Shown: positions 4,247 to 60,590 of the stretch, one piece after another
How positions within the stretch are numbered: position 1 is the stretch's first letter
How the letters are laid out: the number at the start of each line of letters is the position of its first letter
NCBI GenBank assembly: GCA_030390025.1
Contig: CM059432.1
Location: forward strand, 45,510,001-45,574,000
Length of the DNA stretch: 64,000 bases
Direction: 5' to 3'
DNA from: Squalus acanthias
Lineage: Eukaryota
Position numbers and translations under genes: made by a program
Notes under the pieces: generated by a model
Seen by the model: the letters and a program-made list of their open reading frames with translations, nothing else
Databases searched by the model: none
What the model was told of the DNA's origin: nothing

Positions 4247-4352
4247 CTGGATTAATAATTTTCGCAAAATTGTTATATTAACATAATGTTTCTAAAACAA
4301 ATTTAAAAATGCAATGGGGTCATGTTAACTTAACCCACCCCATGGGTTCTAG

Positions 4353-4882
4353 TAAGGAGTGTGATGGAATACTCTCCACTTGCCTGGATGAGTGCAGCTC
4401 CAATAACACTCAAGAAGCTCGACACCATTCAGGACAAAGTAGCCTGCTTGATTGGCACCCCATCCACCACCTTAAACATTCATTCCCTCCACCACTGGCG
4501 CACCGTGGCTGCAGTGTGTACCATCTACAAGATGCACTGCAGCAACTCGCCAAGGCTTCTTCGGCAGCACCTCCCAAACCCGCGACCTCTTCCACCTAGA
4601 AGGACAAGGGCAGCAGGCGCATGGGAACACCACCACCTCCAAGTTCTCCTCCAAGTCACACACCATCCTGACTTAGAAGTATATCGCCGTTCCTTCATCG
4701 TCGCTGGGTCAAAATCCTGGAACTCCCTCCCTAACAGCACTGTGGGAGTACCTTCACCACACGGACTGCAGCGGTTCAAGAAGGCGGCTCACCACCACCT
4801 TCTCAAGGGCAATTAGAGATGGGCAATAAATGCTGACCTTGCCAGCGACGCCCACATCCCATGAACGAATGCTAAAAAAAAA
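4353..4882 (+). mobile_element. 5'-truncated copy (Z0) of the CR1/Zenon-like single-ORF LINE
   Basis: MEYSPLAWMSAAP...KKAAHHHLLKGN* followed by a 3' stem-loop and A tail; same family as 26285-32603. Confidence 0.9.
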
Positions 4883-4884
4883 AT

Positions 4885-13922: not shown

Positions 13923-14596
13923 TTTTCAAGGGAGAAGGATTTTTTTTTAGGAGCCATTAAACTGAAGTTTAAATGTTTGAAATTTGTAACCTGTTGGGTC
14001 TCAAACAGTTCCCTGTATCCAATTGGATTGTTCCAGCTATTATTTGCCTGCAGAACATGGTTGCTCTAGCAAGCTACTGATAATTAATAACAATTACACT
14101 GCTGCACAGGTAAACAATTGTTCCCAATTGGCCAGGAATGATGGAAGTTAAAAACAATGGATAGCTTCTGTGGATATAAGTAATAAAGCTCACGGTGTCT
14201 CAAGACTAAGCCATTTGATCATCTGGGTTTGTACACAACGCTGAAGGTCACATATTTAGGATTATTAACTCTCACATGAAAATGGATTGAAAGTACTTAG
14301 CACAGTATGATTCTCTGGCACTCAGTTATTTTTATCATTGCCTAAATCTGCATAGTTCATCATTTAAAGCTCTCATTGTGTACTAACAATAAACCTTTTT
14401 TTATCATGTGTCCATGTGTTCAGCAATTCTTTTATCTGTGCTACCAATTATCTTGTATAGTCCTGCACTGTGACACCTACCGAAATATTGTTCTGGGGCT
14501 CCTGTTTTACAGATTCTGTCCGACTTTCTCGCTAGACCTGTAAATAGAATAGCTTTGCCTAGAGGTGGTGATGAGGATGGGCAATATGCTCCCACA

Positions 14597-24253: not shown

Positions 24254-24331
24254 TATGTGGAACCTTATATGGAACCTTGTTAAATGCCTACTGGAAGTCC
24301 ATATAAATAACATCGATAGATACTCCCTTAT

Positions 24332-25830
24332 CTCGGGAACAGTGCCCATGGATTGGAGGGTAGCTAACGTTACCCCACTATTCAAAAAGGGGGGTAGGGA
24401 AAAAGCAGGTAATTACAGACCTGTAAGCCTTACATCAGTTGTGGGCAAAATGCTGGAGTCCATCATTAAGGATGAAATAGCGGAGCACTTAGCAAATGGG
24501 GACAGGATAGGACAGAGTCAACATGGATTTACAAAGGGTAAATCGTGCTTGACTAATCTATTGGAATTTTTTGAGGGAGTAACTGGTAAAATAGATGGGG
24601 GAGAGCCAGTAGATGTGGTGTACCTGGACTTCCAAAAGGCCTTCGACAAGGTCCCACATAAAAGATTAGCATGGAAAATTGAAGCTCATGGGATAAAGGG
24701 GAAAGTATTGACGTGGATAGAGAACTGGCTGTCAGATAGAAAACAGAGAGTTGGAATAAACGGCTCATTTTCTGAATGGCAGGCAGTAACAAGTGGGGTA
24801 CCGCAGGGATCTGTCCTGGGTCCCCAGCTGTTCACAATTTACATTAATGACCTGGATCAGGGAGTCGGATGCAGCATTTCCAAATTTGCAGACGACACTA
24901 AACTAGTAGGGGGGGTGGGCTCAGAGGAGGAGACCAGGAAGCTCCAGAGCGATTTGGACAGACTGGGTGATTGGGCGGATAAATGGTAGATGCACTATAA
25001 TGTGGACAAGTGCGAAGTTATCCACCTTGGGTGCAGGAACGGGAGGGCAAATTATTATTTAAATGGCAATAAATTGGGAGAGGGGGAAGTACAGAGAGAC
25101 CTGGGTGTTCTTGTACACCAGTCACTGAAGGCGAGCATGCAGGTGCAACAGGCGGTCAAGAAGGCAAACGGTATGCTGGCCTTCATAGCAAAAGGGTTGG
25201 AATACAGGAACAGGGATACCTTGCTGCAGCTGTACAGGGCACTGGTGAGACCACACCTCGAGTACTGTGTACAGTTTTGGTCGCCTCATCTGAGGAAAGA
25301 TGTTCTTGCCATGGAGGGGGTGCAGCGGCGATTCACCAGGCTGATACCAGGAATGGCGGGATTGACCTATGAGGAGAGACTATGTAGTTTAGGGATGTAC
25401 ACACTGGAGTTTAGAAGATTGAGAGGGGACCTCATAGAAGTGTATAAAATTCTGACAGGTCTAGACAGACTAGATGCAGAAGGAATGTTTCCCTTGGCGG
25501 GTGAGAACAGAACTAGAGGACATAATTTAAGGATAAGGGCTAAACCATTTAGGACAGAAATGAGGGGGAATTTCTTCACTCAGAGGGTGGTGAACCTGTG
25601 GAATTCATTGCCACAGAGAGCAGTGTACGCCAGCTCATTAAATATATTTAAGAGGGAATTAGATATATTTCTACAGGCAAAAGGGGTTAAGGGTTACGGA
25701 GAGAAGGCGGGGACGGGATACTGAATTGGAGGATCAGCCATGATCTCATTAAATGGCGGAGCAGGCTCGAAGGGCCGGATGGCCTACTCCTGCTCCTATC
25801 TTCTATGTATCTATGTATCTATGTATGTAT
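24332..25830 (+). mobile_element. 5'-truncated CR1 LINE (C), single nonsense codon at 24987
   Basis: Continuous RT frame across one TAG; (TCTATGTA)n tail. Confidence 0.95.
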
Positions 25831-26284: not shown

Positions 26285-29200
26285 TTTTTTTTGATTCGTT
26301 TTTATGGGATCTGGGTGGCACTGGCAAGGCCAGCAATTATTGCCCATCCCGAATTGCCCTTGAGAAGGTGGTGGTGAGCCGCCTTCTTGAACCGTTGCAG
26401 TCCGTGTGGTGAAGGTACTCCCACAGTGCTGTGAGGTAGGGAGTTCCAGGATTTTGACCCAGCGACGATGAAGGATCGGTGATATACTTCTAAGTCAGGA
26501 TGATGTATGACTTCGAGGGGAACTTGGAGGTGGTGGTGTTCCCATGTGTCTGCTGCCCTTGTCCTTCTAGGTGGTAGAGGTCACGGGTTTGGGAGGTGCT
26601 GCCGAAGAAGCCTTGGCGAGTTGCTGTAGTGCATCTTGTAGATGGTACACACTGCAGCCACGTTACGCCAGTGGTGGAGGGAGTGAAGTTTAAGGTGGTA
26701 GAGGGGATGCCCATCAAGTGGGCTGCTTTGTCCTGGATGGTGTCGAGCTTCTTGAGCGTTGTTGGAGCTGCACTCATCCAGGCAAGTGGAGCGTATTCCA
26801 TCACACTCCTGACTTGTGCCTTGTAGATGGTGGAAAGGTTTTGGGGAGTCAGGAGGTGAGACACTCGCCACAGAATACCTAGCCTCTGACCTGCTCTTTT
26901 AGCCACAGTATTTATGTGGCTGGTCCAGTTAAGTTTCTGGTCAATGGTGACCCCAGGATGTTGATGGTGGGGGATTCGGCGATGGTAATGCCGAACAGGA
27001 CGGTTTGCACCTGAACCAGAGTGGCACCAATATCCTGGGAGGGAAATTCGCTACGGCTCTTCGGGGGGGTTTAAACTAATTTGTCAGGGGGATGGGAAAA
27101 AGGGCTGTAGTCCAGGAGCCAGTGGTGAGTGTAGGGAGGTACTGAGGAGGGTATCAATGTCGCAGGAATGTACCGGCAGACAGGAAGATGGCTTGAAGTG
27201 TGTCTACTTCAATGCAAGGAGCATCCGGAATAAGGTAGGAGAACTTGGAGCGTGGATTGGTACTTGGGACTACGATGTGGTGGCCATTACGGAGACATGG
27301 TTAGAACAGGAACAGGAATGGTTGTTGGAAGTTCCGGGGTATAGATGTTTCAGTAAGAGTAGGGAAGGTGGTAAGAAAGGTGGAGGAGTAGCATTGTTAA
27401 TCAAGGATAGTTTAACAGCGGCAGAAAGGCAGTTCGAGTGGGATCTGCCGTCTGAGGTAATATGGGCTGAAGTTAGAAATAGGAAAGGAGCGGTCACGTT
27501 GTTAGGAGTTTTCTACAGGCCCCCAAATAGTAATAGAGATGTGGAGGAAGAAATTGCAAAGCAGATTATGAATAGGTGTGGAGGTCACAGAGTAGTTGTC
27601 ATGGGTGACTTCAACTTTCCAAATATTGATTGGAACCTTTATAGGTCAAACAGTTCGGATGGGATAGTTTTTGCACAGTGTGTGCAGGAGGGTTTCCTGA
27701 CACAATATGTGGATAGGCCGACAAGAGGTGGGGCCACATTGGATTTGGTACTGGGTAATGAACCAGGCCAAGTGTTTGATTTGTATGTGGGAGAGCACTT
27801 TGGAGATAGTGACCACAATTCGGTGACTTTCACTATTGCAATGGAGAGGGATAGGGCCATGCGGCAGGGCAGGGTTTATAATTGGGGGAGGGGTAATTAT
27901 GATGCGATTAGGCAAGAATTAGGGAGCATAAGATGGGAACAGAAACTATCAGGGAAAGGCACAAACAAAAAGTGGAGCTTTTTCATGGAGCAATTACTGC
28001 GTGTCCTTGATAGGTATGTCCCTGTCAGGCAGGGAGGAAATGGCCGAGTGAGAGAACCATGGTTCACAAAAGAGGTTGAATGTCTAGTCAAGAGGAAAAA
28101 GGAAGCGTATGTAAGGATGAGAAAACAAGGTTCAGTTGGGTCGATTGAGGGGTACAAGGTAGCAAGGAATGAGCTAAAAAAAGAGCTTAGGAGAGCTAGG
28201 AGGGGGCATGAGAAGTCCTTGGCGGGTCGGATCAAGGAAAACCCCAAGGCTTTTTACTCTTATGTGAGAAATAAAAGAATGACCAGGGTGAGGGTAGGGC
28301 CGGTCAAGGACAGTAGTGGGAACTTGTGCATGGAGTCAGAAGAGATAGGAGAGGTGATGAATGAATACTTTTCGTCAGTGTTCACCGAGGAGAGGGGCCA
28401 TGTTTTTGAGGATGAGAGTGTGATAAAGGTGGATAGGCTGGAGGAGGTAGATGTTCTGAGGGAAGATGTTTTAGCAATTTTGAAGAACCTGAGGGTCGAT
28501 AAGTCCCCTGGGCCAGATGGGATATATCCTAGGATTCTTTGGGAGGCAAGGGAGGAGATTGCAGAGCCTTTGGCTTTGATCTTTGGGTCCTCACTGTCCA
28601 CGGGGATGGTGCCAGAGGACTGGAGAGTGGCGAATGTTGTTCCTCTCTTCAAGAAAGGAAATAGGAATGACCCTGGTAATTATAGGCCGGTTAGTCTTAC
28701 TTCGGTGGTTGGTAAGATAATGGAAAAGATCCTGAGGGATAGGATTTATGACCATTTGTAAAGAGGCAACTTAATCCGGGATAGTCAACACGGATTCGTG
28801 AAGGGTAAGTCTTGCCTAACAAATTTGATTGAATTCTTTGAGGAGGTAACTAAGTGTGTAGATGAAGGTAGAGCAGTTGATGTCGTATACATGGATTTTA
28901 GTAAGGCGTTTGATAAGGTTCCCCATGGTCGGCTCATGAAGAAAGTAAGGAGTTGTGGGATAGAGGGAAATTTGGCCGATTGGATAAGTAACTGGCTATC
29001 TCATAGAAGGCAGAGGGTGGTGGTGGATGGAAAATTTTCGGACTGGAGAGACCAGTTACCAGCGGTGTGCCACAGGTGTCGGTGCTGGGTCCTCTGCTGT
29101 TTGTGATTTTTATCAATGACTTGGAGGAGGGGACTGAAGGGTGGATCAGTAAATTTGCTGATGACACCAAGATTGGTGGAGTAGTGGATGAGGTGGAGGG

Positions 29201-32200
29201 CTGTTGTAGGCTGCAAAGAGACATTGATAGGATGCAGAGCTGGGCCGAAAAATGGCAGATGGAATTTAACCCTGATAAGTGCGAGGTGATTCATTTTGGT
29301 AGGGCAAATTTGAATAAGGATTACAGGGTCAACGGCAGGGTTCTGAGGAACGTGGAGGAACAGAGGGATCTGGGGGTTCATATCCACAGATCTCTGAAGG
29401 TTGCCACTCAAGTGGATAGAGCAGTAAAGAAGGCCTATAGTGTGTTAGCGTTTATTAACAAGGGGTTTGAGTTTAAGAACCGTGAGGTTATGCTGCAACT
29501 GTACAGGACCTTGGTGAGACCACATTTGGAATATTGTGTGCAGTTCTGGTCACCTCACTATAGGAAGGACGTGGAAGCATTGGAAAGAGTGCAAAGGAGA
29601 TTTACCAGGATGCTGCCTGGTTTGGGGGGGAGGTCTTATGAGGAAAGATTGAGGGAGCTAGGGCTTTTCTCTTTAGAGCAGAGGAGGATGAGAGGCGACT
29701 TAATAGAGGTTTATAAGATGATGAGGGGGATAGATAGAGTGGATGTTCAGAGACTATTTCCTCGGGTGGATGTAGCTGTTACAAGGGGGCATAACTATAA
29801 GGTGCATGGGGGGAGATATAGAAGGGATGTCCGAGGTAGATTCTTTACTCAGAGAGTGGTTGGGGTGTGGAATGGACTGCCTGCTGTGATAGTGGAGTCG
29901 GACACTTTAGGAACTTTCAAGCGGTTATTGGATAAGCACATGGAGCACACCAGAATGATAGGGAGTGGGATAGCTTGATCTTGGTTTCGGACAATGCTCG
30001 GCACAACATCGAGGGCCGAAGGGCCTGTACTGTGCTGTACTGTTCTATGTTCTATGTTCTATGAATGTCAAGGGGTGGCATTTAGACTCTCGCTTGTTGG
30101 AGATAGTCATTGCCTGGCACTTCTGTGGTGCAAATGTTACCTGCCACTTATCAGCCCAAGCCTGAACGTCGTCCAGGTCTTGTTGCATGCGGGCATGGAC
30201 TGCTTCATTATCTGAGGAGTTGTGAATGGCACTGAACACTGCACAGTCATCAGCGAACATCCCCATTTCTGACCTTATGTTGGAGGGAAGGTCATTGATG
30301 AAGTAGCTGAAGATGGTTGGGCCTAGGACACTGCCCTGAGGAACACCTGCAGCGATGTCCTGGGGCTGTGATGATTGATCTTCAATTACCACAACCATCT
30401 TCCTTTGTGCTAGGTATGACTCCAACCAGTGGAGAGTTATCCCCCCGATTTCCATTGACTTCAGTTTTATTCGGGCTCCTTGATGCCACACTCGGTCAAA
30501 TGCTGCCTTGATGTCAAGGGCAGTCACTCTCACCTCACCTCTGGAATTCAGCTCCTTTGTCCATGTTTGGACCAAGGCTATAATGAGGTCGGGAGCCGAG
30601 TGGTCTTGGCGGGACCCAAACTGGGCATCAGTGAGCAGGCTATTGGTGAGCAAGTGCCGCTTGATAGCACTGTCGATGACACCTTCCATCACTTTGCTGA
30701 TGATTGAAAGTAGACTGATGGGGTGGTAATTGGCCGGATTGGATTTGTCCTGCTTTTTGTGGACAGGACATACCTGGGCAGTTTTCCACTTTGTCAGATA
30801 GATGCCAGTGTTGTAGCTGTACTGGAACAGCTTGGCTAGAGGCGCGGCTACTTCTGGACCACAAGTCTTCAGCACAATAGCCGGGATGTTGTCAGGGCCC
30901 ATAGCCTTTGCTGTATCCAGTGCGCTGAGCTGTTTCTTGATATCACGTGGAGTTAATCCAATTGGCTGAAGACTGGTTTCTGTGATGGTGGGGACCTCAG
31001 GAGGAGGTCGATATGGATCATCCACTCGGCACTTCTGGCTGAAGATGGTTGCAAACGCTTCAGCCTTGTCTTTTGCGCTCGCGTGCTGGGCTCCACCATC
31101 ATTGAGGATGGGGATATTCATGGAGCCTTATCCTCCCGTTAGTTGTTTAATGGTCCACCACCATTCAAGACTGCATGTGGCAGGACTGCAGAGCTTTGAT
31201 CTGATCCGTTGATTGTGGGATCACTTAGCCCTGTCTATAGCATGCTGCTTCTGCTTTTTAGCATGCATGTAGTCCTGTGTTGCAGCTTCCCCAGGTTGGC
31301 ACCTCATTTTTAGGTACGCCTGGTGCTGCTCCTGGCATGCTCTTCTACACTCCTTATTGAACCAGGGTTGGTCCCCTGGCTTGATGGTAATTGTAGAGTG
31401 AGGGGTATGCTGGGCCATGAGGTTACAGATTGTGGTGGAATACAATTCTGCTGCTGCTGATGGCCCACAACGCCTCATGGATGCCCAGTTTTGAGCTGGT
31501 AGATCTGTTCTGAATCTATCCCATTTAGCACGGTGGTAGTGCCACACAACACGATGGAGGGTGTCCTCAGTGTGAAGACGGGACTTCGTCTCCACAATGA
31601 CTGTGCGGTGGTCACTGCTACGAATACTGTCATGGAGAGATGCATCTGCGACAGGTAGATTGGTGAGGATGAGGTCAAATAGGTTTTTCTCTCGTGTTGG
31701 TTCTCTCACCACCTGTCGCAGGTCCAGACTGGCAGATATGTCCTTCAGGACTCGGCCAGTAGTGGTGCTACCGAGCCACTCTTGGTGATGGACATTGAAG
31801 TCCCCCCACCCAGAATACATTCTGTGCCCTTGCTACTCTCAGTGCTTCTTCCAAGTGGTGTTCAATATGGGGGAAGTACTGATTCATCAGCTGAGGGAGG
31901 GCGGTAGGTGGTAATCAGCAGGAGGTTTCCTTGCCCATGCTTGACCTGAAACCATGAGACTTCATGGGGTCCAGAGTCAATGTTGAGGACTCCCAGGGCC
32001 ACTCCTTCTCGACTGTACACCACTCCTGGGTGGTACAGGACATACCCAGGGATGGTGATGGAGGAGTTTGGGACATTTGCTGAAAGGTATGATTCTGTGA
32101 GGATGACTATGTCAGGCTGTTGCTTGACTAGTCTGTGGGACAACTCTCCCAATTTTGGCACAAGTTCCCAGATGTTGGTGAGGTTGGACTTTGCAGGGTT

Positions 32201-32603
32201 GACTGTGCCATTGCCGTGTCCGTAGCCGGTGCCGGGTGGCCCATCCGGTTTCATTTTTATTATTTTGTTTCGTAGCGGTTTGTTACAACTGAGTGGCTTG
32301 CTAGGCCATTTCAGAGGGCAATTAAGAGTCAACCACATTGCTGTGGGTCTGGAGTCACATACAGGCCAGACCAGGTAAGGACGGCAGATTTCCTTCCCTA
32401 AAGGACATTAGGGAAACAGATGGGTTTTTATGACAAAATGATTGTTTCATGGTTACCATTGCTAATAATTATTCCAGATTTATTTAATTAACTGAATTTA
32501 AATTTCCCAGCTGTCGTGGTGGGATCTGAACTCACGTTTAACTGGATCATTAGTCCAGGCCTCATGAATTACTAGCCCAGTGACATTACCACTACGCTAC
32601 CGT
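26285..32603 (-). mobile_element. Full-length CR1/Zenon-like single-ORF LINE (Z1) with a tRNA-derived head, interrupted by CR1-D
   Basis: Head 32510-32603; APE (PDIVILTESYL, YRPP, GDFN, SDH); RT (NYHPISLLS, PQGSVLGP, FADD); 3' stem-loop and A tail. About 3.25 kb without the insert. Confidence 0.9.
26993..30063 (+). mobile_element. CR1 LINE (D): end of ORF1 plus near-complete ORF2 (27157-29978)
   Basis: DGLHLN esterase-type ORF1 end, APE and RT; TAA at 28759 and a 2-nt slip near 29048; (TTCTATG)n tail. Confidence 0.95.
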
Positions 32604-32789
32604 TTTCTTGTGTTAAATATCATGGATAAAAACTGTTACCATTTTAACTTGTATAACATGAGTAATCACCTTGACCTTCTTCACTATCGGTCTACCAGGG
32701 ATCAGTTACATGAATACGCATCATGAGGCCACATATCCCACCAGCTATCATCTTTATTTAATCACACTATAAAATCACAGTTTCCCATG

Positions 32790-33640: not shown

Positions 33641-35371
33641 GAAAGTAAGCGCTCTTAGTGATGGATAGGGTATGCTACTGTTGGTTCTCAGTCTCTCAAG
33701 CATTTCAAAGTACTTCACATGCAATAAATTTCTTTGAAATGCAGCAATTGTTATTATGTAGGCAAACATGGTAGCCATTTTGTGCACATCAAGATCAAAT
33801 GGTAATGAGTTTCATAACCTGTTATCTGTTGGCTGAAAAAGGAATGTTGACTGATCATGGAGAGAGTTCCCTATGCAATGTCATATTTAGAATTTTCATA
33901 CCCACATGCCATTTGATAAAAGTATCTCTGTATCAGCATAATTAATGAGCCATTTTTGGTGAAATATAATTCACAAAAAGCTTATTATAGCCATACAGCT
34001 ACATTCAAAACTTATGTATATCCCTACCTCAGTGATTAGGCTCTTTGAGCCCCCCATGTAGGCAGTATAGAGCAGTACACCCTTTTTTTACACTCCTTGA
34101 TGAGTTGCTAAGGCTCATTAGAAATTCATAGCTGTCAACCTTATTCAAAATATAACATATTCATGACTGAACCAATTACTATATATTTATATTTATTTGA
34201 AAATCGTGAATTAGACTCCATCTCAAGATCGTTACTAGGGACACAGCAAAAACTTTTTTTTTATTCGTTCATGGGATGTAGGCGCCGCTGGCAAGGCCAG
34301 CATTTATTGCCCATCCCTAATTGCTCTTGAGAAGGTGGTGGTGAGCTGTCTTCTTGAACCGCTGCAGTCCGTGTGGTGAAGGTACTCCCACAGTGCTGTT
34401 AGGGAAGGAGTTCCAGGATTTTGACCCAGCGACGATGAAGGAACGGCCAAAAATTTCCAAGTCAGGATGGTGTGTGATTTGGAGGGGAACTTGCAGGTGA
34501 TGGTGTTCCCATGCACCTCCTGCCATTGTCCTTCTAGGTAGTAGAGGTTGTGGGTTTGGGAGGTGCTGTCAAAGAAGCCTTGGCAAGTTGCTACAGTGCA
34601 TCTTGTAGATGGTACACACTGCAGCCATGGTGCGCCGCTGGTGGAAGGAGTGAATGTTTAAGGTGGTGGATGGGGTGCCAATCAAGCGGACTGCTTTGTC
34701 TTGGATGGTGTCGAGCTTCTTGAGTGCTATTGGAGCTGCACTCATCCAGGCAAATGGAGAGTATTCCATCACACTCCTGACTTGTGCCTTGTAGATGGTG
34801 GAAAGGTTTTGGGGAGTCAGGAGGTGAGACACTCGCCGCAGAATACCCAGCCTCTGACCTGCTCTTGTAGCTACAGTATTTATGTGGCTGGTCCAGTTAA
34901 GTTTCTGGTCAATGGTGACCCCCAGGATGTTGACGGTGGGAGATTTGGCAATAGCAATGCTGTTGAATGTCAAGGAACGGTGGTTAGACTCTCTCTTGTT
35001 GGAGATAGTCATTGCCTGGCATTTGTGTGGCGCGAATGTTACTTGCCACTTATCAGGCCAAGTCTGAATGTCGTCCAGGTCTTGCTGCATGCGGGCAAGG
35101 ACTGCTTCATTATCTGAGGAGTTATGAATGGAACTGAACACTGTGCAATCATCAGTGAACACCCCTACTTATGACCTTATGATGGAGGAAAGGTCATTGA
35201 TGAAGCAGCTAAAGATGGTTGGGCCTAAGACACTGCCCTGAGTAACTCCTACAGCGATGTCCTGGGGCAGAGATGATTGGCCTCCATCAACCACAACCAT
35301 CTTCCTTTGTGCTAGGTATAACTCCAGCCAGCAGAGAGTTTGCCCCCTGATTCCCATTGACTTCAATTTTA

Positions 35372-36515
35372 ATGTGCAACATTAAAGCACATGGGATTAG
35401 GGGTAATATACTGGCATGGATTGAAAATTGGTTAACAGACAGGAAACAGAGAGTAGGAATAAATGGGTCTTTTTCGGGGTGGCAGGCGGTGACTAGTGGG
35501 GTACCGCAGGGATCAGTGCTTGGGCCCCAGCTATTCACAATATATATCAATGATTTAGATGAGGGAACCAAATGTAATATTTCCAAGTTTGCTGACGACA
35601 CGAAACTAGGTGGGATTGTGAGTTGTGAGGAGGATGCAAAGAGGCTTCAAGGTGATTTAGACAAGTTGAGTGAGTGGGCAAATACATGGCAGATGCAGTA
35701 TAACGTGGATAAATGTGAAGTTATCCACTTCGGTAGGAAAAACAGAAAGGCAGAGTATTATTTAAAGGGTGATAGATTGGGAAATGTTGATGTACAAAGG
35801 GACCTGGGTGTCCTTGTACACCAGTCACTGAAAGCAAACATGCAGCTGCAGCAAGCAGTTAGGAATGCAAACAGTATGTTGGCCTTCATTGCAAGAGGAT
35901 TTGAGTGCAGAAGCAAGGATGTCTTAATACAGTTATACAGGGCCTTGGTGAGACCACACCTGGAGTAGTGTGTGCAGTTTTGGTCTCCTTACCTAAGAAA
36001 GGATGTACTTGCCATAGAGGGAGTGTAACGAAGGTTCACCAGACTGATTCCTGGGATGGCAGGAGAGATTGGGTCGACTAGGCCTGTATTCAATAGAGTT
36101 TAGAAGAATGAGAGGGGATCTCATTGAAATGTATAAAATTCTGACAGGGCTAGACAGACTGGATGCAGGGAGGATGTTTCCCCTGGCTGGGGTGTCTAGA
36201 ACGAGGGGTCACAGTCTCAGGATATGGGGTAGGACATTTAGGACTGAGATGAGGAGAAATTTCTTCACTCAGAGGGTGGTGAACCTATGGAATTCTCTAC
36301 CACAGAAGGCTGTGGAGGCCAAGTCACTGAATATATTTAAGAAGGAGATAGATAGATTTCTAGACAGAAAAGGCATCATGGGGTATGGGGAGAGAGCGGG
36401 AATATGGTATTGAGATAGAGGATCAGCCATGATCATATTGAATGGTGGAGCAGGCTGAAAGGGCCGAATGGACTACTCCTGCTCTTATTTTTCTATGTTT
36501 TCTATGTTTTTTCTT
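35372..36515 (+). mobile_element. 5'-truncated CR1 LINE (E)
   Basis: RT motifs PQGSVLGP and FADDTK; several stops; TTCTATG tail. Confidence 0.93.
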
Positions 36516-37101
36516 CTAGGGCTCTTTGATGCTACACTCAGTCAAATGCTGCCTTGATGTCAAGGGCAGTCACTCTCACCTCACCTCTGGAATTCAGTTC
36601 TTCTGTCCATGTTTGGACCAAGGCTATAATGAGGGCTGGAGCCGAGTGGTCCTGGCAGAACCTAACTGAGCATCAGTGAGCAGGTTATTGGTGAGCAAGT
36701 GCCGCTTGATAGCACTCTCGATGACACCTGCCATCACTTCGCTGATGATTGAGAGTAGCCTGATGGGGCGGTAATTGGCCGGATTGGATTTGTCCTACTT
36801 TTTGTGGACAGGACATACCTGGGCAATTTTCCACATTGTCGGGTAGATGCCAGTGTTGTAGCTGTACTGGAACAGCTTGGCTGGAGGCGCAGCTAATTCT
36901 GGAGCACAAGTCTTCAGTACGACAGCTGGGATGTTGTCTGGGCCCATAGACTTTGCTGTATCCAGTGCGCTCAGCCGTTTCTTGGTATCACGTGGAGTGA
37001 ATTGAATTGGCTGAAGACTGGCTTCTGTGATAGTGTGGCCTTCAGGAGAAGTCCGAGCTGGATCATCCACTCGGCACTTCTGGCTGAAGATGGTTGCAAA
37101 C

Positions 37102-38410
37102 AGTACTGAAACTGCTCTTACCAAGGTCACAAATGACATTCTAATTGACTGCGACAAAGGTAATCTATCCCTTCTCGTCCTTCTGGACCTGTCTGCAGCC
37201 TTTGCATGGTTGTCCACAAAATTCTGCTCCAATGCTTCTCTACCGTCATCAAGCTGAATGGGACTGCACTCGCCTGGTTTCATTCCTATCTTTCTAACCG
37301 TAACCATAGAATTACCTGCAATGGCTTCTCTTCCCAATCCCGCGCTGTCACCTCTGGTGTCCCCCAAGGATTTATCCTTCGCCCCCCTCTTATTTCTCAT
37401 CTACATGCGGCCCCTCGGTGACATCATCCGGCAACTCAACGCAAGTTTTCACATGTATGCTGATGATACCCAGCTCTACCTCTCCTCCACCTCTCTCAAA
37501 CCTTCCACCATCTCTAGACTATCAAACTGCTTGTCCGACATCCAACAATGGATGAGTAGAAATTTGCTCCAATTAATTATCAGGAAGACCGAAGCCATTG
37601 TCTTCGGTTCACGCTACAAACTCCATTCCCTTTCCACTGATTCGCCCTCTCGCCCCGGCAACTGTCTGAGGCTGGCCAAGTCTGTTCGCAACCTTGGTGT
37701 CATATTTGATCACGGATTGAGTTTCCTACCTCATATCCATTCTATCACTAAGACTGGCCATTTCCACCTTTGTAATATCACCCATCTCCACCCTTTCTTC
37801 AACTTATCTGCTGGTGAAACCCTCATCCATGCCTTTATCACCTCTAGACTTGATTATTCCATTGCACTCCTGGCCGGCCTCCCTAGTTTTACCCTCCATA
37901 AACTTGAGGTTATCCAAAACTCTGCCGCCCGTGTGCTAACTCGCACCAAGTCCCGTTCACCCATCACCCCTGTGCTTGCTGACCTACATTAAGCTACGCC
38001 TCGATTTAAAAATTCTCATCCTTGTTTTTAAATCTGTCCATGGCCTCATCCCTCCTTATCTCTGTAATCTCCTCCAGCCCTATAATCCCTCGAGATCTCT
38101 GCACTCCACCTATTCTGGACTTTGGAACATCACCGATTTTAAATGCTCCACCATTGGCAGTCGTGCCTTCAGCTGCCTAGGTCCTAAGTTCTGGAATTCA
38201 CTCCCTAAATCTCTCCAGCTCTCCACTTCTCTTTCCTCCTTTAAGATTCTCCTTAAAACGTACCTCGTCGACAAAGCTTTTGGTTCTCTGCCCTAACATC
38301 TCCTTATGTGGCTCGGTGCCAAATTTGATAACACTCCTGTGAAGCGCCTTGAGACGTTTTATTATGTTAAAGGCACTATATAAATATAAGTTGTTGTAAT
38401 TTGTTGTTGT
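37102..38410 (+). mobile_element. 5'-truncated L2 LINE
   Basis: STETAL, LDLSAAF and YADDTQLY motifs; (GTT)n tail. Confidence 0.93.
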
Positions 38411-39495
38411 TCAGCCTTGTCTTTTGCACTCGCGTGCTGAGCTCCACCATAATTGAGGATGGAGATATTCATGGAGCCTCCTCCTCCCGTTAGTTGTTTA
38501 ATGGTCCACCACCATTCATGACTTGATATGGCAGGACTGCAGAGCTTTGATCTGATCCGTTAATTGTGGGATCGCTTAGCCCTGTCTATAGCATGCTGCT
38601 TCCGCTTTTTAGCATGCATGTAGTCCTGTGTTGCAGCTTCCCCAGGTTGGCACCTCATTTTTAGGTACGCCTGGTGCTGCTCCTGGCATGCTCTTCTACA
38701 CTCCTTATTGAACCAGGGTTGGTCCCCTGGCTTGATGGTAATTGTAGAGTGAGGGATATGCCGGGCCATGAGGTTACAGATTGTGGTGGAATGCAATTCT
38801 GCTGCTGCTGATGGCCCACAGTGCCTCATGGATGCCCAGTTTTGAGCTGCTAGATCTGTTCTGAATCTATCCCATTTAGCACAGTGGTAGGGCCACACAA
38901 CACGATGAAGGGTGTCCTCAGTATGAAGATGGGACTTTGACTCCACCTCATAATACAGTATATGTAATGATGCAGGACTGAGGCTGTGTAGGTGTCTTTT
39001 TGAACTCTCAAACACCGTGCCTGATTTAATGGGGCAGCTGCCAAATCAAACAAATAAAGACAGAACCACTTCATATTTGTCGTATGTTATTGCTGAGCCT
39101 CAGATAGGAAGTACGGAACACTGCTGCCGGAAAGATTTTCACCACCTCTCAAACTCAAAGCACACTTAATCCAATCATCCCTATCCTGCATGGTGTTGAG
39201 TGCCGGAGGACCTTTAAGAAAGCAGATGTTTCTCTGAATGGCTTACAGGGACCCATCTCCAAATTGGTAGGCATTACCTACCATCTTGCTTGGTAACTTG
39301 GGCTTTACAAAAGGCAAGATATAGGTCAAGGTAATAATAATGAAGGCCATTGAATTCCAGTTTTCACGGAAAAATGGAAAATGCTGTAGAATTCGATCCT
39401 AAAAATATTGGCAACTGTCCCAAAATACCATATAATAAAAATGCAATTTGACTTATTCAGTCATCACAAGCCAATAGTTCTGGTAATGATACATT

Positions 39496-47160: not shown

Positions 47161-50100
47161 TTTTTTTTTTTTTATTATTCGTTTATGGGATCAGGGCATC
47201 GCTGGCAATGCCAGCATTTATTGCCCATCCCTAGTTGCCCTTGAGAAGGTGGTGGTGAGCCACCTTCTTGAACCGCTGCAGTCCGTGTGGTGATGGTACT
47301 TCCACAGTGCTGTTAGGTAGGGAGTTCCAGGATTTTGACCCAGCGCCGATGAAGGATCGGCGATATACTTCTAAGTCAGGATGGTGTGTGACTTGGAGGG
47401 GAACTTGGAGGTGGTGGTGTTCCCATGCGGCTGCTGCCCTTGTCCTTCTAGGTGGAAGAGGTTGCGGGTTTTGGAGGTCCTGCCGAAGAAGCCTTGGCGA
47501 GTTGCTGCAGTGCATCTTGTAGATGGTACACACTGCAGCCACGGTACGCCGGTGGTGGAGGGAGTGAATGTTTAAGTTGGTGGATGGGGTGCCAATCAAG
47601 CGGGCTGCTTTGTCCTGGATGGTGTTGAGCTTCTTGAGTGTTGTTGGAGCTGCACTCATCCAGGCAAGTGGAGAGTCTTCCATCACACTCCTTACTTGTG
47701 CCTTGTAGATGGTGGAAAGGCTTTGGGGAGTCAGGAGATGAGACACTCGCCGCAGAATACCTAGCCTCTGACCTGCTCTTGTTGCCACAGTATTTATGTA
47801 GCTGGTCCAGTTAAGTTTCTGGTTAATGGTGACCCCCAGGATGTTGATAGTGGGGGATTCGACGATGGTAATGCCATTGAATGTCAAGGGGAGGTGGTTA
47901 GACTCTCGCTTGTTGGAGATAGTCATTGCCTGGCACTTCTGTGGCGCAAATTTTACCTGCCACTTATCAGCCCAAGCCTGAACATCGTCCAGGTCTTGTT
48001 GCATGCGGGCATGGACTGCTTCATTATCTGTGGAGTTGTGAATGGCGCTGAACACTGTGCAGTCATCTGCGAACATCCCCATTTCTGACCTTATGTTGGA
48101 GGGAAGGTCATTGATGAAACAGCTGAAGATGGTTGGGCCTAGGACACTGCCCTGAGGAACTCCTGGGGCTGTGATGATTGACCTTCAACCACCAAAACCA
48201 TCTTCCTTTGTGTTAGATATGACTCCAGCCAGTGGAGTGTTTTCCCCCTGATTCCCATTGACTTCAGTTTTACTGGGGCTCCTTGATGCCACACTCGGTC
48301 AAATGCTGCCTTGATGTCAAGGGCAGTCACTCTCACCTCACCTCTGGAATTCAGCTCTTTTGTCCATGAGTGGACCAAGGCTGTAATGAGGTCTGGAGCC
48401 GAGTGGTCTTGGTGGAACCCAAACTGGGCATCAGTGAGCAGATTATTGGTGAGTAAGTGCCGCTTGATAGCACTGTCGATGACACCTTCCATCACTTTGC
48501 TGATGATTGAGAGTAGACTGATAGGGTGGTAATTGGCCGGGTTGGATTTGTCCTATATTGTCGGATAGATGCCAGTGTTGTAGCTGTACTGGAACAGCTT
48601 GGCTAGAGGCGCGGCTAGTTCTGGAGCACAAGTCTTCAGCATGATAGCCGGGATGTTGTCGGGGCCCATAGCCTTTGCTGTATCTTGATATCACGTGGAG
48701 TGAATCGAATTGGCTGAAGACTGGCTTCTGTGATGGTGGGGACTTCGGGAGTAGGCCGATATGGATCATCCACTCGGCACTTCTGGCTGAAGTTGGCTGC
48801 AAACACTTCAGCCTTGTCTTTTGCACTAACGTGCTGGGCTCCCCCATCATTGAGGATGGGGATATTCTTGGAGCCTCCTCCTCCCGTTAGTTGTTTAATG
48901 GTCCACCATAATTCATGACTGCAGAGCTTTGATCTGATCCGTTGATTGTGGGATCGCTTAGCCCTGTCTATAGCATGCTGCTTCTGAGCATGCAGTCCTG
49001 TGTTGCCTATTTTAAGGTACGCCTGGTGCTGCTCCTGTACACTCGTTGTTGAACCAGGGTTGATCCCCTGGCTTGGTGGTAATGGTTATGCCGGGCCATG
49101 AGGTTACAGATTGTGGTGGAATACAATTCTGCAGCTGCCCCACAGCACCTCATGGATGCCCAGTTTGGAGCTGCTAGATCTGTTCTGAATCTATCCCATT
49201 TAGCACAGTGGTAGTGCCACACAACACGATGGAGGGTGTTTTCAATGTGAATACGGGACTTCATCTCCACAATGACTGTGCGGTGGTCACTGCTGCTCTG
49301 GACAGATGCATCTGCAACAGGTAGGTTGGTGATGACGAGGTCAAGTAGGTTTTTCCCTCGTGTTGGTTATCTCACCACCTGTCGCAGGCCCAGACTGGCA
49401 GTTACATCCTTCAGGACTCGGCCAGTAGTGGTGCTACCGAGCTACTCTTGGTGATGGACATTGAAGTGTTCCCCCCCCCCCAAGTACATTCTGTGCCCTT
49501 GCTGCTTCTTCCAAGAAGTGTTCAACATGGAGGAGTACTGATTCATCAGCTGAGGGAGGGCGGTAGGTGGTAATCAGCAGGAGGTTTCCTTGCCCCTGCT
49601 TGACCTGAAGCCATGAGACTTCATGGGGTCCGGAGGCAATGTTGAGGACTCCCAAGGGCACTCCTTCCCGACTGTATACCACTGTGCCACCACCCCTGGT
49701 GGGTCTGTCCTGCCGCTGGGACAGGACATACCCAGGGATGGTGATGGAGGAGTTTGGGACATTGTCTGAAAGGTATGATTCTGTGAGTATGACTATGTCA
49801 GGGCTGTTGCTTGACTAATCTGTGGGACAGCTCTCCCAATTTTGGCACACGTCCCCAGATGTTGGTGAGGAGGACTTTGCAGGGTTGACTGGGCTGGGTG
49901 CGCCGTTGCCGTGTCTGTAGCCGAGGTCGATGCCGTCCGTCCAGTTTCATTCTTATTATTTTGTTTCGTAGCAGTTAGTTACAACTGAGTGGTTTGCTAG
50001 GCCATTTAAGAGGGCAGTTAAGAGTCAACCACATTGCTGTGGGTCTGGAGTCACATATAGGCCAGACCAGGTAAGGACGGCAGATTTACCATTAGTGACC

Positions 50101-50295
50101 CAAATGGATTTTTACGACAATCCGATAGCTTTATAGTTACCATTACTGATACTAGCTTTTTATTCCAGATTTATTTAATTAACTGAATTTAAATTCCCCA
50201 GCTGCCGTGGTAGGATTGGAACTCACGTCTCTGGATCATTAGTGCAGGCTTCTGGATTACTAGCCCAGTGACATTACCACTACACTACCGTTCCC
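47161..50295 (-). mobile_element. Full-length uninterrupted Zenon-like single-ORF LINE (Z2) with a tRNA-derived head; many small deletions
   Basis: Colinear with Z1 from head to A tail; A box 50287-50277 and B box 50224-50213. Confidence 0.92.
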
Positions 50296-59004: not shown

Positions 59005-60590
59005 CTTTTTTTAAATTCGTTCCTGAGATGTGGGCATTGCTGGCAAGGCCAGCATTTATTGCCCATCCCCAATTGCCCTTGAGAAAGTGGTGGTGAGCCG
59101 CCTTCTTGAACCGCTGCAGGCCGTGTGGTGAAAGTACTCCCACAGTGCTGTTAGGGAGGGAGTTCCAGGATTTTGATCCAGCGATGATGAAGGATCGGCG
59201 ATATACTTCCAAGTCAGGATGGTGTGTGACTTGGAGGGGAACTTGGAGGTGGTGGTGTTCCCATGTGCCTGCTGCCCTTGTCCTTCTGGGTGTTAGAAGT
59301 TGCAGGTTTGGGAGGTGCTGCCGAAGGAGCCTTGGTGAGTTGCTGCAGTGCATCTTGTAGATGGTACACACTGCAGCCACATTACGCCGGTGGTGCAGGG
59401 AATGAATGTTTAAGGTGGTATATGGGGTGCCAATCAAGCGGGCTGCTTTGTCCTCGATGGTGTCGAGCTTCTTGAGTGTTGTTGGGGCTGCACTCATCCA
59501 GGCAAGTGGAGAGTATTCCATCACACTCCTGACTTGTGCCTTGTAGATGGTGCAAAGGTTTTGGGGAGTCAGTAGGTGAGACACTCATCGCAGAATACCT
59601 AGCCTCTGACCTACTCTTGATGCCACAGTATTTATGTGGCTGGTCCAGTTAAGTTTCTGGTCATTGGTGACCCCCCAGGATGTTGATGGTGGGGTATTTG
59701 GCGATGGTAATGCCGTTGAATGCTAACGGGTGGTGGTTAGACTCTCGCTTGTTGGAGATAGTCATTGCCTGCCACTTGTGTGGCGCGAATGTTACCTGTC
59801 ACTTATCAGCCCAAGCCGGAACGTCATCCAGGCCTTGTTGCATGCGGGCATGGACTGCTTCATTATCTGAGGAGTTGCGAATGGCACTGAACACTATGGA
59901 GTCATTAGCAAACATCCCCATTTTTGACCTTATTTTGGAGGGAAGGTCATGGATGAAGCAGCTGAAGATGGTTGGGCCTAGGACACTGCCTTGAGGAACT
60001 CCTGCAGCGATGTCCTGGGGCTGTGATGATTGACCTTCAACCACCACAACCATCTTCCTTTGTGCTAGGTATGACTCCAGCCAGTGGAGAGTTTCCCTCC
60101 TGATTCCCATTGACTTCAGTTTTACTAGGGATCCTTGCTGCCACACTTGGTCAAATGCTGCCTTGTTCAAGGGCAGTCACTCTCACCTCACCTCTGGAAT
60201 TCAGCTCCTTTGTCCATGTTTGCAACAAGGCTGTAATGAGGTCTGGAGCTGAGTGGTCCTGGCGGAACCCAAACTGGGCATCAGTGAGCAGGTAAATGCT
60301 GCTTGATAGCACTGTCGATGACACCTTCCATCACTTTGCTGATGATTGAGAGTAGACTGATGGGGCGGTAATTGGCCGGATTGGATTTGTCCTGCTTTTT
60401 GTGGACAGGACATACCTGGGCAGTTTTCCATATTGTCGGATAGATGCCAGTGTTTTAGCTGTGCTGGAACAGCTTGGCTAGAGGCGCAGCTAGTTCTGGA
60501 GCACAAGTCTTCAGCACGATAGCCGGGATATTGTCAGGGCCCATAGCCTTTGCTGTATCCAATGCGCTGAGCCGTTTCTTGATATCACGT
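59005..60590 (-). mobile_element. 5'-truncated Zenon-like LINE (Z4)
   Basis: RT through C-terminus, colinear with Z1 and Z2. Confidence 0.92.

What the first reader, a model, noticed from the sequence alone, without database searches (positions are those of the whole stretch)
47161..50295. Autonomous-type LINE with a tRNA-derived Pol III head fused directly to a single APE-RT ORF
Seen: two independent full-length copies (Z2 here; Z1 at 26285-32603) start with the same tRNA-like head on the minus strand. The A boxes are TAGTGTAGTGG and TAGCGTAGTGG (50287-50277, 32599-32589). The B boxes are GAGTTCCAATCC and GAGTTCAGATCC (50224-50213, 32533-32522). A colinear leader of about 250 nt runs straight into the endonuclease motif (NIW.LVPKLGELSHRLVKQQPDIVILTESYL), then RT, with no ORF1; total length is about 3.2 kb. 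Established: tRNA-derived A/B-box heads define non-coding SINEs, whereas CR1-clade LINEs normally use Pol II-type 5' UTRs. Inference: this is a protein-coding retrotransposon that moves as one unit with a SINE-type promoter, a SINE-LINE hybrid. I cannot confirm that it is absent from Repbase or Dfam, and terminal TSDs are only weakly visible (cttgt around Z1).
Basis: partly seen in the sequence, partly recalled or inferred. Interest (0 to 1): 0.9.

Follow-up and report, generated by a model that had tools for sequence, protein, structure and literature searches.

The report
Shark LINE carrying SINE-type tRNA head
An old, abundant jumping gene in this shark-type genome encodes its own copying enzymes yet begins with the tRNA-like promoter module normally seen only on small non-coding SINEs, and the genome's SINEs look like shortened versions of it.

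Summary
Z2 (47161-50295, minus) and Z1 (26285-32606, minus) are decayed copies of a ~3.2-kb family with one APE-RT ORF. In 40 fetched genomic copies the only shared 5' end is a ~95-nt tRNA-like head with A and B boxes. A ~250-nt body follows, then the ATG. Shorter copies are truncated within this unit, no copy extends further 5', and two clear TSDs enclose head plus tail. Diverged LINE lineages (64-82% identity) carry the same head. Co-resident SINE families consist of this 5' module plus the last ~100-160 nt of the LINE, with at least three different junctions, one of which keeps the LINE's ATG. Their 5' sequences change in step with the LINE's, so the SINEs look like internal-deletion derivatives. 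The sense strand almost lacks T4+ runs, the Pol III terminator: 2 observed against 72 expected in 16 full-length copies. Other LINEs match expectation (70/60 and 121/126). This suggests, but does not prove, Pol III transcription of the whole element. All 16 full-length copies examined have broken ORFs. I obtained no RNA evidence, could not search Repbase or Dfam, and found no description in print in the searches I ran.

The parts
47161..50295 (-). Z2: full-length but decayed copy of the headed LINE (3135 nt)
   Evidence: It is colinear with 40 genomic copies.
50201..50295 (-). tRNA-derived head (element nt 1-95), with a duplicated anticodon-arm-like segment
   Evidence: Rfam tRNA scored 14.5 bits here and 26.3 bits (gathering score 29) on the homologous head of L006, with a 22-nt insert. 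ARAGORN called tRNA-Ile in 1 of 27 family loci.
50277..50287 (-). A box TAGTGTAGTGG
   Evidence: The family majority is TAGCGTAGTGG.
50213..50224 (-). B box GAGTTCCAATCC, mutated relative to the family majority GAGTTCAAATCC
49951..50200 (-). Body of the 5' module. It is the rest of the 5' UTR and is shared with the SINE families.
49948..49950 (-). ATG of the single ORF, in frame with the APE N-terminal motif
   Evidence: Read. One SINE subfamily retains this ATG.
47231..49950 (-). Remnant of the single APE-RT ORF, broken by stops and frameshifts. The stop TAG is at 47233-47231.
49250..49870 (-). Endonuclease (APE) region; the limits are approximate
   Evidence: Placed by homology to L017:1377-2480, which hits Exo_endo_phos_2 (E 1e-12) and Exo_endo_phos (E 1.1e-11). 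Z2's own pieces gave no Pfam hit.
47825..48549 (-). Reverse transcriptase domain
   Evidence: RVT_1 E 1.1e-15 and 6e-17 on Z2's own ORF pieces.
47161..47320 (-). 3' tail shared with the SINEs: the last ORF codons, the 3' UTR and the A-rich end
26285..32606 (-). Z1: second full-length copy, of a different subfamily (84.8% identity to Z2 over q9-2423)
26993..30061 (+). Unrelated LINE-like element nested in Z1's RT region; not part of the family
   Evidence: Gap in the Z1/Z2 alignment. tblastn RT-like hits at 27067-29966 on the + strand.
4351..4883 (+). 5'-truncated copy (q2605-3137)
34254..38946 (-). 5'-truncated, interrupted copy (q1031-3133 in three pieces)
59006..60559 (-). 5'-truncated copy (q1617-3134)

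Best explanation
Z1 and Z2 are dead copies of an old, abundant non-LTR retrotransposon family of about 3.2 kb with a single APE-RT ORF of CR1/L2 type.

Shown: the true 5' end is a SINE-type module of a ~95-nt tRNA-derived head with A and B boxes plus a ~250-nt body. The ORF's ATG follows directly. The whole unit, head to A-rich tail, was retrotransposed as one RNA.

Shown: diverged lineages of the same LINE also carry the head. The genome's SINE families consist of this 5' module joined to the LINE's last ~100-160 nt.

Inferred, about 0.75: these SINEs arose, probably repeatedly, by internal deletion of the headed LINE. In that case LINE and SINE form one evolving lineage that shares both ends.

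Inferred, about 0.45: the head worked as a portable internal Pol III (type 2) promoter for the LINE too. It would fix the RNA 5' end 8 nt upstream of box A wherever the element lands. The near-absence of T4+ terminators over 3.2 kb would be the footprint of selection for Pol III read-through.

How the ORF was translated is open. The RNA might be uncapped Pol III RNA, or a separate Pol II or read-through transcript might supply the protein.
For: Architecture:
- Of 20 loci picked by APE N-terminus similarity, 10 reach the head start. L008 and L009 are one duplicate, so this is 9 of 19 independent loci. The other 10 are truncated at q36-392, inside the head or leader.
- No alternative shared 5' sequence exists.
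- Of 20 loci picked by head+leader, all 20 run on into the ORF and 16 reach q>=3109.
- All full-length copies start GGGAACGGTAGCGTAGTGG, or a close variant of it, next to unrelated flanks.

TSDs: 2 of 22 elements have a 13-nt exact or a 20-nt (2 mismatches) duplication enclosing head plus tail. Both exceed all 462 mismatched-pair controls.

Antiquity:
- Headed LINE copies exist at 80-82% identity (L049, L053, L062) and 64-70% identity (L043, L069).
- With an L043-type query, 5 of 39 further hits run from the B-box region into APE. With an L069-type query, 32 of 39 run from the body into APE.

SINEs:
- In 359 kb of fetched DNA, 12 copies have the 5' module followed directly by the tail.
- Three junction types are amplified. 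Non-self hits spanning the junction number 26 of 39, 31 of 39 and 3 of 39; the last type keeps the LINE's ATG.
- Old, middle and young SINEs share head-arm number and indels with the old, middle and young LINEs respectively.
- Contigs of 3 of 4 public runs join the 5' module to the tail across about 2.7 kb.

Promoter:
- The strict A+B box pattern is found in 21 of 70 loci against 0.02 expected per 64 kb.
- The boxes persist through a 22-nt duplication that breaks the cloverleaf.

T4+ runs on the sense strand:
- 0 in 14 of 16 full-length copies, with 2 observed against 72 expected.
- 18 observed against about 202 expected over 143.7 kb, at scattered, mostly private sites.
- A4+ runs are normal, 216 observed against 235 expected.
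- Controls match expectation: other LINE-like regions of this genome 70 against 59.9, and 14 related LINE ORFs of other organisms 121 against 126.
Against: - There is no expression evidence. No listed run is on record as RNA, and all the runs laid were contigs.
- Against a dinucleotide-shuffle null the T4+ deficit is weak. It is 0.125 observed against 1.9 per copy, so P(0) is about 0.15 for one master. The copies share ancestry, so they are not independent samples.
- Part of the element (5' module and tail) is shared with SINEs, where T-run avoidance is expected anyway.
- Pol III is regarded as too poorly processive for long elements, and autonomous elements are assumed to use Pol II (Kojima 2018 PMC5786205, introduction and discussion read; Kojima 2024 PMC10886601, passages read).
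- Pol III RNA is uncapped, and the 345-nt leader holds 8 upstream ATGs (my count on the L038 copy). Translation from such an RNA would be poor.
- tRNA detectors mostly fail on the head. ARAGORN called 1 of 40 own-genome loci and none in the window. Rfam stayed below threshold, and gave 0 of 5 on older heads.
- All 16 full-length copies have broken ORFs, with a longest open stretch of 453 aa, so nothing can be tested on a living copy.
- The lockstep change of the 5' regions could also come from recombination or template switching between SINE and LINE RNAs.
- Sampling was limited to the 40 best-scoring hits per search.
Confidence: 0.55

Rival explanations
1. The head is a passenger or a Pol II element. 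A CR1/L2-like LINE lineage once picked up the 5' part of an abundant SINE, for example by template switching at the end of reverse transcription, and kept it as an ordinary 5' UTR. That UTR may contain a Pol II promoter. The LINE was transcribed by Pol II, and the A and B boxes mattered only for the SINEs. The similarity of SINE and LINE 5' regions was maintained by recombination with the far more abundant SINE RNAs.
For: - LINEs are generally Pol II-transcribed, and Pol III processivity is thought to limit element length (PMC5786205, PMC10886601, passages read).
- The ORF needs translation.
- The T4+ deficit is only P about 0.15 against a dinucleotide null.
- In contigs of four runs, depth is much higher over the 5' module and tail than over the ORF, consistent with abundant SINE forms that could serve as recombination partners.
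- From recall, not from any call: mouse B2 SINEs can supply Pol II promoters, and L1 lineages have repeatedly replaced their 5' UTRs.
Against: - It does not explain why the 2.7-kb coding part lacks T4+ runs. Thirteen other LINE-like regions of the same genome and 14 related LINE ORFs elsewhere have the expected number.
- The head has stayed at the exact 5' end through LINE lineages only 64-82% identical.
- One SINE subfamily contains the LINE's ATG, and all contain its last codons, so sequence flowed from LINE to SINE at least sometimes.
Confidence: 0.3
2. The head is an RNA-processing signal. The tRNA-like fold recruits RNase P (or RNase Z) to cut the element RNA out of read-through Pol II transcripts at a precise 5' end. 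This would be the job done by HDV-like ribozymes at the 5' ends of R2, RTE and other LINEs.
For: - Every full-length copy has a uniform 5' end exactly at the start of the tRNA-like sequence.
- Ribozyme-defined 5' ends are known for six LINE clades (discussion of PMC5786205, read).
- Old heads show a plausible acceptor-stem pairing (my reading sequences, not computed).
Against: - The young lineage carries a 22-nt insertion in the variable region. By my reading its acceptor-stem pairing is poor, while the A and B boxes are kept.
- tRNA models mostly fail on the heads.
- T-run avoidance is not explained.
Confidence: 0.07
3. The LINE is site-specific and lands inside SINE copies. The head+body upstream and the tail downstream would then belong to a target SINE, not to the LINE.
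For: The SINE equals the sequence on both sides of the LINE's middle part.
Against: - 5'-truncated copies lack any SINE 5' part upstream. Ten of 20 APE-seeded loci are truncated inside the module and abut unrelated DNA. The three truncated copies in the window have no head nearby.
- The ORF's last codons and stop lie inside the 'tail'.
- TSDs enclose the whole unit.
Confidence: 0.02
4. The arrangement is chance adjacency, segmental duplication or an assembly artefact. A SINE happened to insert just upstream of a LINE, and the locus was duplicated.
For: L008 and L009 are 100% identical over 600 nt of flank, so some duplicates do exist in the assembly.
Against: More than 40 copies on many contigs have unrelated flanks and an identical junction. 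No SINE tail or A-run lies between the body and the ORF.
Confidence: 0.01

Closest known systems
HE1 SINE / HER1 LINE pair of sharks and rays. Ogiwara et al. 1999 is recalled, as the paper is not held. The pair is listed as V-SINE HE1 with partner HER1 in Table 1 of Ohshima 2013, PMC3747384 (passage seen).
   Same: Both are an elasmobranch tRNA-derived SINE of about 400 nt that shares its 3' tail with a CR1-like LINE. This may be the very same pair.
   Different: The published model, as I recall it, is a tRNA-derived promoter fused to a LINE tail, with only the 3' end shared. Here the LINE itself carries the head and body, so both ends are shared. Identity with HE1/HER1 could not be tested because no reference sequence is held.
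Bipartite non-autonomous LINE derivatives, and SINEs that contain LINE 5' parts: Bov-B/Bov-A/Bov-tA, Ingi/RIME, L1Tc/NARTc, Vingi (Kojima 2018, PMC5786205, introduction and discussion read).
   Same: The short elements are made of the 5' and 3' ends of an autonomous LINE, generated by internal deletion.
   Different: In those cases the LINE 5' end is not a small-RNA head, and the tRNA head of Bov-tA and similar elements was added to the deletion derivative afterwards. Only the RTE and Vingi clades were found to contribute 5' parts to SINE bodies. Here a CR1/L2-like LINE already has the head.
TRIMp3: Cassandra, Helenus and Ajax, which are LTR-retrotransposon derivatives with 5S- or tRNA-derived Pol III promoters (Kojima 2024, PMC10886601, passages read).
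   Same: A small-RNA-derived Pol III promoter is built into a retrotransposon other than a classical SINE, and its A and B boxes are conserved.
   Different: Those elements are short (311-1263 bp) and non-coding, and their autonomous partners are argued to need Pol II. Here the protein-coding 3.2-kb element itself carries the promoter.
LINEs with a 5' self-cleaving HDV-like ribozyme: R2, R1, R4, RTE, Ingi, LOA (cited in the discussion of PMC5786205).
   Same: A structured RNA module at the extreme 5' end gives the element a defined 5' end independent of where it lands.
   Different: The mechanism there is cleavage of a co-transcript. Here it would be an internal promoter or, less likely, RNase P processing. 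No ribozyme family was detected at gathering score in the window.
U6/L1 and tRNA/L1 chimeric retrocopies made by template switching (recalled, no call).
   Same: A small Pol III RNA sequence is joined 5' of LINE sequence in one insertion.
   Different: Those are one-off dead chimeras with variable junctions and usually truncated L1. Here one fixed junction defines a whole family and its diverged lineages.

Membership tests
Non-LTR retrotransposon (LINE) with APE and RT | Apurinic-type endonuclease domain | tested here: met
   Exo_endo_phos_2 E 1e-12 and Exo_endo_phos E 1.1e-11 on L017:1377-2480. Z2's own two pieces gave no hit.
Non-LTR retrotransposon (LINE) with APE and RT | Reverse transcriptase domain | tested here: met
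   RVT_1 on Z2 pieces, E 1.1e-15 and 6e-17, and on L027 pieces.
Non-LTR retrotransposon (LINE) with APE and RT | 5'-truncation series with a common 3' end and an A-rich or simple tail; TSDs variable | tested here: met
   Start points run from q5 to q392 in 20 APE-seeded loci. The window holds copies starting at q1031, q1617 and q2605. Clear TSDs occur in 2 of 22 elements.
   The nearest proteins (44-47% identity, 934-948 aa) carry no names, and no reference RTs were available. ORF1 is absent. The 3' end is A-rich, not an obvious microsatellite.
SINE2 (tRNA-derived SINE) | 5' head derived from tRNA with box A and box B | tested here: met
   The strict A+B pattern is found in 21 of 70 loci against 0.02 expected. 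The Rfam tRNA match of 26.3 bits is just below the gathering score of 29. ARAGORN called 1 of 27 loci. The consensus motifs used are recalled.
SINE2 (tRNA-derived SINE) | Short (about 100-700 bp) and non-coding, dependent on a partner LINE | tested here: not met
   The element is 3.1-3.3 kb with an APE-RT ORF. It is therefore not a SINE, although its deletion derivatives are.
Bipartite internal-deletion derivative of a LINE (applies to the co-resident SINEs) | Consists of the partner LINE's 5' end and 3' end with the middle missing | tested here: met
   5' q1 to about 325-365 is joined to 3' q about 3135-3196 through the end, with three amplified junction types.
HE1 SINE / HER1 LINE; V-SINE superfamily | Sequence identity to the published HE1/HER1; a V central domain followed by a (TG)n tract (recalled from the 2002 abstract) | not testable with these tools
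   The papers are not held, and no Repbase or Dfam library is available. I saw no (TG)n tract in the copies printed, but I did not search for the V domain.
Pol III type-2 transcription unit | Box A and box B at permissive spacing, no internal T4+ terminator, Pol III/TFIIIC occupancy, 5'-triphosphate RNA | tested here: inconclusive
   The boxes are present and span 75 nt, or 54 nt in older single-arm heads. T4+ runs are nearly absent. Occupancy and RNA chemistry cannot be tested here, and no RNA evidence was obtained.

The most novel reading that the evidence does not exclude
An autonomous LINE lineage is transcribed over its full 3.2 kb by RNA polymerase III from a tRNA-derived internal promoter. 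Its coding strand has been purged of T-run terminators. It sheds SINEs simply by internal deletion. On this reading some classical tRNA-SINE families, and perhaps their conserved 'bodies', are mini-LINEs rather than tRNA-to-LINE-tail fusions.
Probability: 0.4. Interest if true: 0.9.

Novelty: new variant of a known kind. Interest (0 to 1): 0.78.

Why it matters
Textbook and current specialist accounts separate the two classes. LINEs are Pol II-transcribed and coding. SINEs are Pol III-transcribed and non-coding, made by fusing a small-RNA head to a LINE tail. Kojima (2018, 2024) states that autonomous partners must use Pol II, and that no LINE source is known for the widely conserved SINE bodies.

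A LINE that carries the SINE head and body at its own 5' end gives three things:
- A one-step route to SINE birth by internal deletion.
- A concrete LINE origin for a SINE body.
- A natural test case for whether Pol III can make a 3-kb RNA that serves as template and perhaps as message.

It also warns annotators. The 5' 345 nt of these LINEs will be masked as SINE, so full-length copies will look like a SINE next to a truncated LINE.

Tried and rejected
RNA evidence: the look-up of sequencing runs listed no RNA holder. The four runs laid were contigs of unknown RNA/DNA status, so starts, strand and expression cannot be read.

Relatives in other organisms: 42 metagenome loci were fetched with the nearest named-length homolog. 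ARAGORN found no tRNA in 12 of them. The 750 nt upstream of the best one (L071) showed no obvious head by eye. Element boundaries there are unknown, so this says little.

tRNA identity of the head: ARAGORN gave Ile(aat) for one copy only. By eye the first arm reads AGT (Thr) and the duplicated arm AAT (Ile). I left this unresolved.

Older SINE and LINE heads: ARAGORN found 0 of 13 and Rfam 0 of 5.

Literature: Ogiwara 1999 and 2002 are not held. Six full-text searches turned up no paper describing an autonomous LINE with a tRNA-derived head. Repbase, Dfam and subscription journals were not searchable.

I used only the hit tables.

First version of the A/B regex: it had a mistake in the B box and was replaced.

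A weak sR23 snoRNA match at 49853-49890 (E 0.015, 19 bits against a gathering score of 45): treated as chance.

Earlier notes of this scan: none bears on this element.
Full report
**What is in the window.** Read on the minus strand, Z2 starts at 50295 with GGGAACGGTAGTGTAGTGG and ends with an A-run at 47161.
- The ATG at 49950-49948 is in frame with the LTNIWG.VPKLGELSHRLV endonuclease N-terminus. The 5' UTR is therefore 345 nt and there is no room for an ORF1.
- The ORF remnant ends at TAG 47233-47231, about 70 nt before the A-run.
- Z2's own ORF pieces hit RVT_1 (E 1.1e-15 and 6e-17).
- Z2's two APE pieces are too broken for Pfam. The homologous stretch of a better copy hits Exo_endo_phos_2 and Exo_endo_phos.
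- Z1 (32606-26285) is colinear with Z2 at 84.8% and 92.1% identity. It is interrupted by a 3069-bp foreign insertion at 26993-30061.
- Three more copies in the window are 5'-truncated at q1031, q1617 and q2605.
- ARAGORN finds no tRNA in the window. Rfam gives nothing at gathering score and a weak tRNA match on Z2's head (14.5 bits).

**Is head plus ORF one mobile unit?** The window lies in a 3.7-Gb assembly. I took two samples of that genome.

Sample A was seeded with the APE N-terminus only (3143 first-look candidates, 40 scored). I fetched the 20 best non-self places with 1.5 kb upstream.
- Ten loci reach the start of the head: L001, L003, L004, L006, L008, L009, L013, L016, L017 and L020. 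L008 and L009 are one duplicate. L008/9 and L020 carry indels in the head.
- Ten are truncated at q36, 50, 86, 97, 245, 254, 262, 314, 317 and 392, inside the head or leader.
- Their upstream flanks share nothing that could be an alternative 5' UTR or an ORF1.

Sample B was seeded with head plus leader (8329 candidates, 40 scored). I fetched the 20 best.
- All 20 continue into the ORF.
- Sixteen reach q>=3109, eleven of them in one uninterrupted alignment.

All full-length copies begin GGGAACGGTAGCGTAGTGG, or a close variant, next to unrelated DNA.

Of 22 elements with both ends, two have unmistakable target-site duplications that enclose head and tail. L033 has 13 nt exact. L026 has 20 nt with 2 mismatches. 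Both score above all 462 mismatched-flank controls. One more element (6 nt) is above the controls' 95th percentile. The rest, including Z1's 5-nt ACAAG, are at chance level.

This is the pattern of a LINE RNA that includes the head. It rules out a SINE that happened to sit upstream. It also rules out a LINE that targets SINEs, because truncated copies abut unrelated DNA rather than a SINE 5' half.

**The head.**
- The family-majority boxes are TAGCGTAGTGG and GAGTTCAAATCC.
- A strict box A / 25-60 nt / box B pattern is present in 21 of 70 fetched loci. Nineteen are at LINE heads, one is at an old SINE head, and one was not examined. The expectation is 0.02 per 64 kb. The consensus motifs are recalled knowledge.
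- Z1 and Z2 fail the strict pattern because their B boxes have mutated.
- The Rfam tRNA model aligns the D arm, anticodon arm and T arm of the L006 head at 26.3 bits (gathering score 29). It shows a 22-nt insert in the variable region that duplicates the anticodon arm.
- ARAGORN calls one head tRNA-Ile, out of 27 loci. It calls none among 13 older copies.
- The head is therefore a typical degenerate SINE2-type head. It is not a tRNA gene.

**Relation to SINEs.** Fragments of the leader turned up elsewhere in the fetched DNA. They proved to be old SINE copies.

A search with one of them returned both SINEs and diverged LINE copies. The SINEs are the LINE's first ~325-365 nt joined to its last ~100-160 nt. 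In 359 kb of fetched DNA, 5' modules reaching q>=300 are followed by the ORF 51 times, directly by the tail 12 times, and by neither 7 times. That sample is biased by how the loci were chosen.

There are at least three junction types, and each is amplified.

| Junction type | Non-self hits spanning the junction | Note |
|---|---|---|
| L066 type | 26 of 39 | |
| L061 type | 31 of 39 | |
| L045 type | 3 of 39 | Retains the LINE's ATG and first codons |

All types include the LINE's last codons and stop.

An alignment of 33 5' modules shows three grades.
- Old SINEs and old LINE copies (L043, L069) share a single-arm head and one body variant.
- Middle SINEs and LINEs share the duplicated arm.
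- Young LINEs and one young SINE copy (L056) share a further 23-nt insert.

Hit tables show that the old lineages are families, not single chimeras.
- With an L043-type query, 5 of 39 hits run from the B-box region into APE, and 14 more run from the body into APE.
- With an L069-type query, 32 of 39 hits run from the body into APE.

Contigs of three of four public runs, from differently coded organisms, join the 5' module to the tail across about 2.7 kb at several junctions. No contig covers the window's unique flanks.

The simplest reading is one lineage in which the LINE carries the head and repeatedly sheds short deletion derivatives. Recombination between SINE and LINE RNAs could produce the same lockstep. 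I cannot exclude an original capture of a SINE 5' half by a head-less LINE.

**Does the head work for the LINE?** One sequence footprint bears on this. T4+ runs, the Pol III terminator, are almost absent from the sense strand.

| Sequence set | T4+ observed | T4+ expected (base composition) |
|---|---|---|
| Headed family, 16 uninterrupted full-length copies (51.4 kb) | 2 | 72 |
| Headed family, all 76 alignments >=400 nt (143.7 kb) | 18 | about 202 |
| 13 other LINE-like coding regions, same fetched DNA (19.7 kb) | 70 | 59.9 |
| 14 related LINE ORFs from other organisms (33.8 kb) | 121 | 126 |

- Fourteen of the 16 full-length copies have no T4+ run at all.
- The 18 runs in the larger set lie at scattered sites. 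Fifteen positions are hit, and three of them in two copies each. The masters therefore had none.
- A4+ runs in the family are normal, 216 observed against 235 expected.
- Some of the related ORFs from other organisms have the same T content, so the composition null is well calibrated for such genes. For one master, P(0 | 4.5) is about 0.01.
- Against a dinucleotide shuffle the expectation is only 1.9 per copy, so P is about 0.15. The copies are not independent.
- The diverged copies L049, L053 and L062 (80-82% identity) also have none in 0.6-1.8 kb each. The oldest copy, L069, has three.

Several points fit a Pol III type-2 unit:
- The boxes are conserved across lineages.
- The duplication keeps the boxes but spoils the cloverleaf.
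- The 5' end is fixed 8 nt upstream of box A.

Several points argue against it:
- There is no RNA evidence.
- Pol III is held to be poorly processive (PMC10886601, passages read).
- Pol III RNA is uncapped, and the leader has 8 upstream ATGs (my count).

I put Pol III transcription of the full LINE at about 0.45, a passenger or Pol II role at about 0.3, and an RNase P-type processing role at under 0.1.

**State of the family.** All 16 uninterrupted full-length copies have broken ORFs. The longest open stretch is 453 aa, against about 950 aa expected. Copies are roughly 85-95% identical to one another. The family is old and, in this sample, dead.

**Comparison with what is known.**
- The nearest proteins in the large database are unnamed 934-948-aa single-ORF proteins at 44-47% identity, on 3.2-4-kb contigs. 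Clade assignment (CR1, L2 or Rex1) was not tested.
- By host, SINE size and CR1-like partner, this may be the HE1/HER1 pair. That pair is listed in Ohshima 2013 (table passage). A 402-bp HE1 consensus is mentioned in PMC2911107 (passage). The original papers are not held, and as far as I recall they describe only a shared 3' tail.
- Kojima 2018 (introduction and discussion read) found LINE 5' parts in SINE bodies only for RTE and Vingi. That paper assumes bipartite LINE derivatives are Pol II units to which heads are added later.
- Kojima 2024 (passages) states that non-LTR retrotransposons are Pol II-transcribed, and that autonomous partners of Pol III-headed elements must use Pol II.
- Six full-text searches found no description of an autonomous LINE with a tRNA-derived head. 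Repbase, Dfam and subscription journals could not be searched, so prior curation cannot be excluded.

**Verdict.** It extends to three points: the arrangement is ancient, it holds across the family, and the co-resident SINEs are best read as its deletion derivatives. Pol III use is a well-motivated but untested inference. I rate this a new variant of a known kind, with interest 0.78.

Noticed in passing
window 26993-30061 (+): A ~3.07-kb element of another LINE-like family sits inside Z1's RT region in the opposite orientation. It has RT-like tblastn hits at 27067-29966, is C-poor (13% C), and has 13 T4+ runs on its sense strand, unlike the headed family.
   Followed up: partly
window 14423-15570, 19904-25709, 35315-36380, 37254-38269: These are further LINE-like coding remnants of other families. 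I used them only as T-run controls, and their family and strand assignments were not checked further.
   Followed up: partly
L008 (G000:C16:5043687-5048687) and L009 (G000:C16:4680367-4685367): Two places about 360 kb apart on one contig hold the same LINE copy with 600 nt of 100% identical upstream flank. This is either a recent segmental duplication or an assembly duplicate.
   Followed up: no
L026 4400-5001 and 1204-1263: A full-length copy inserted into the head of another copy in the opposite orientation. It is flanked by a 20-nt TSD made of head sequence.
   Followed up: partly
window about 50087: Z2 lacks a ~23-nt segment (cctttagggaaggaaatctgc...) that most young copies have. Contigs of all four public runs laid show it as loose ends at this place.
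   Followed up: partly
L029 (501-2165) and L023 (2284-4501): These are head-bearing copies of 1.66 kb and 2.2 kb with large internal deletions (q975-2468; q585-875 and q1873-2615). They may be intermediate-size deletion derivatives or post-insertion deletions. L029 has a 6-nt candidate TSD.
   Followed up: no
window 49853-49890 (+): Weak match to the archaeal-type C/D snoRNA family sR23 (19.3 bits, gathering score 45, E 0.015), on the antisense of the ORF start. It looks like chance.
   Followed up: no
L050 697-751 (-): This is a further strict box A / box B match (55-nt span), outside the SINE copy for which the locus was fetched. It is probably the head of another SINE copy.
   Followed up: no
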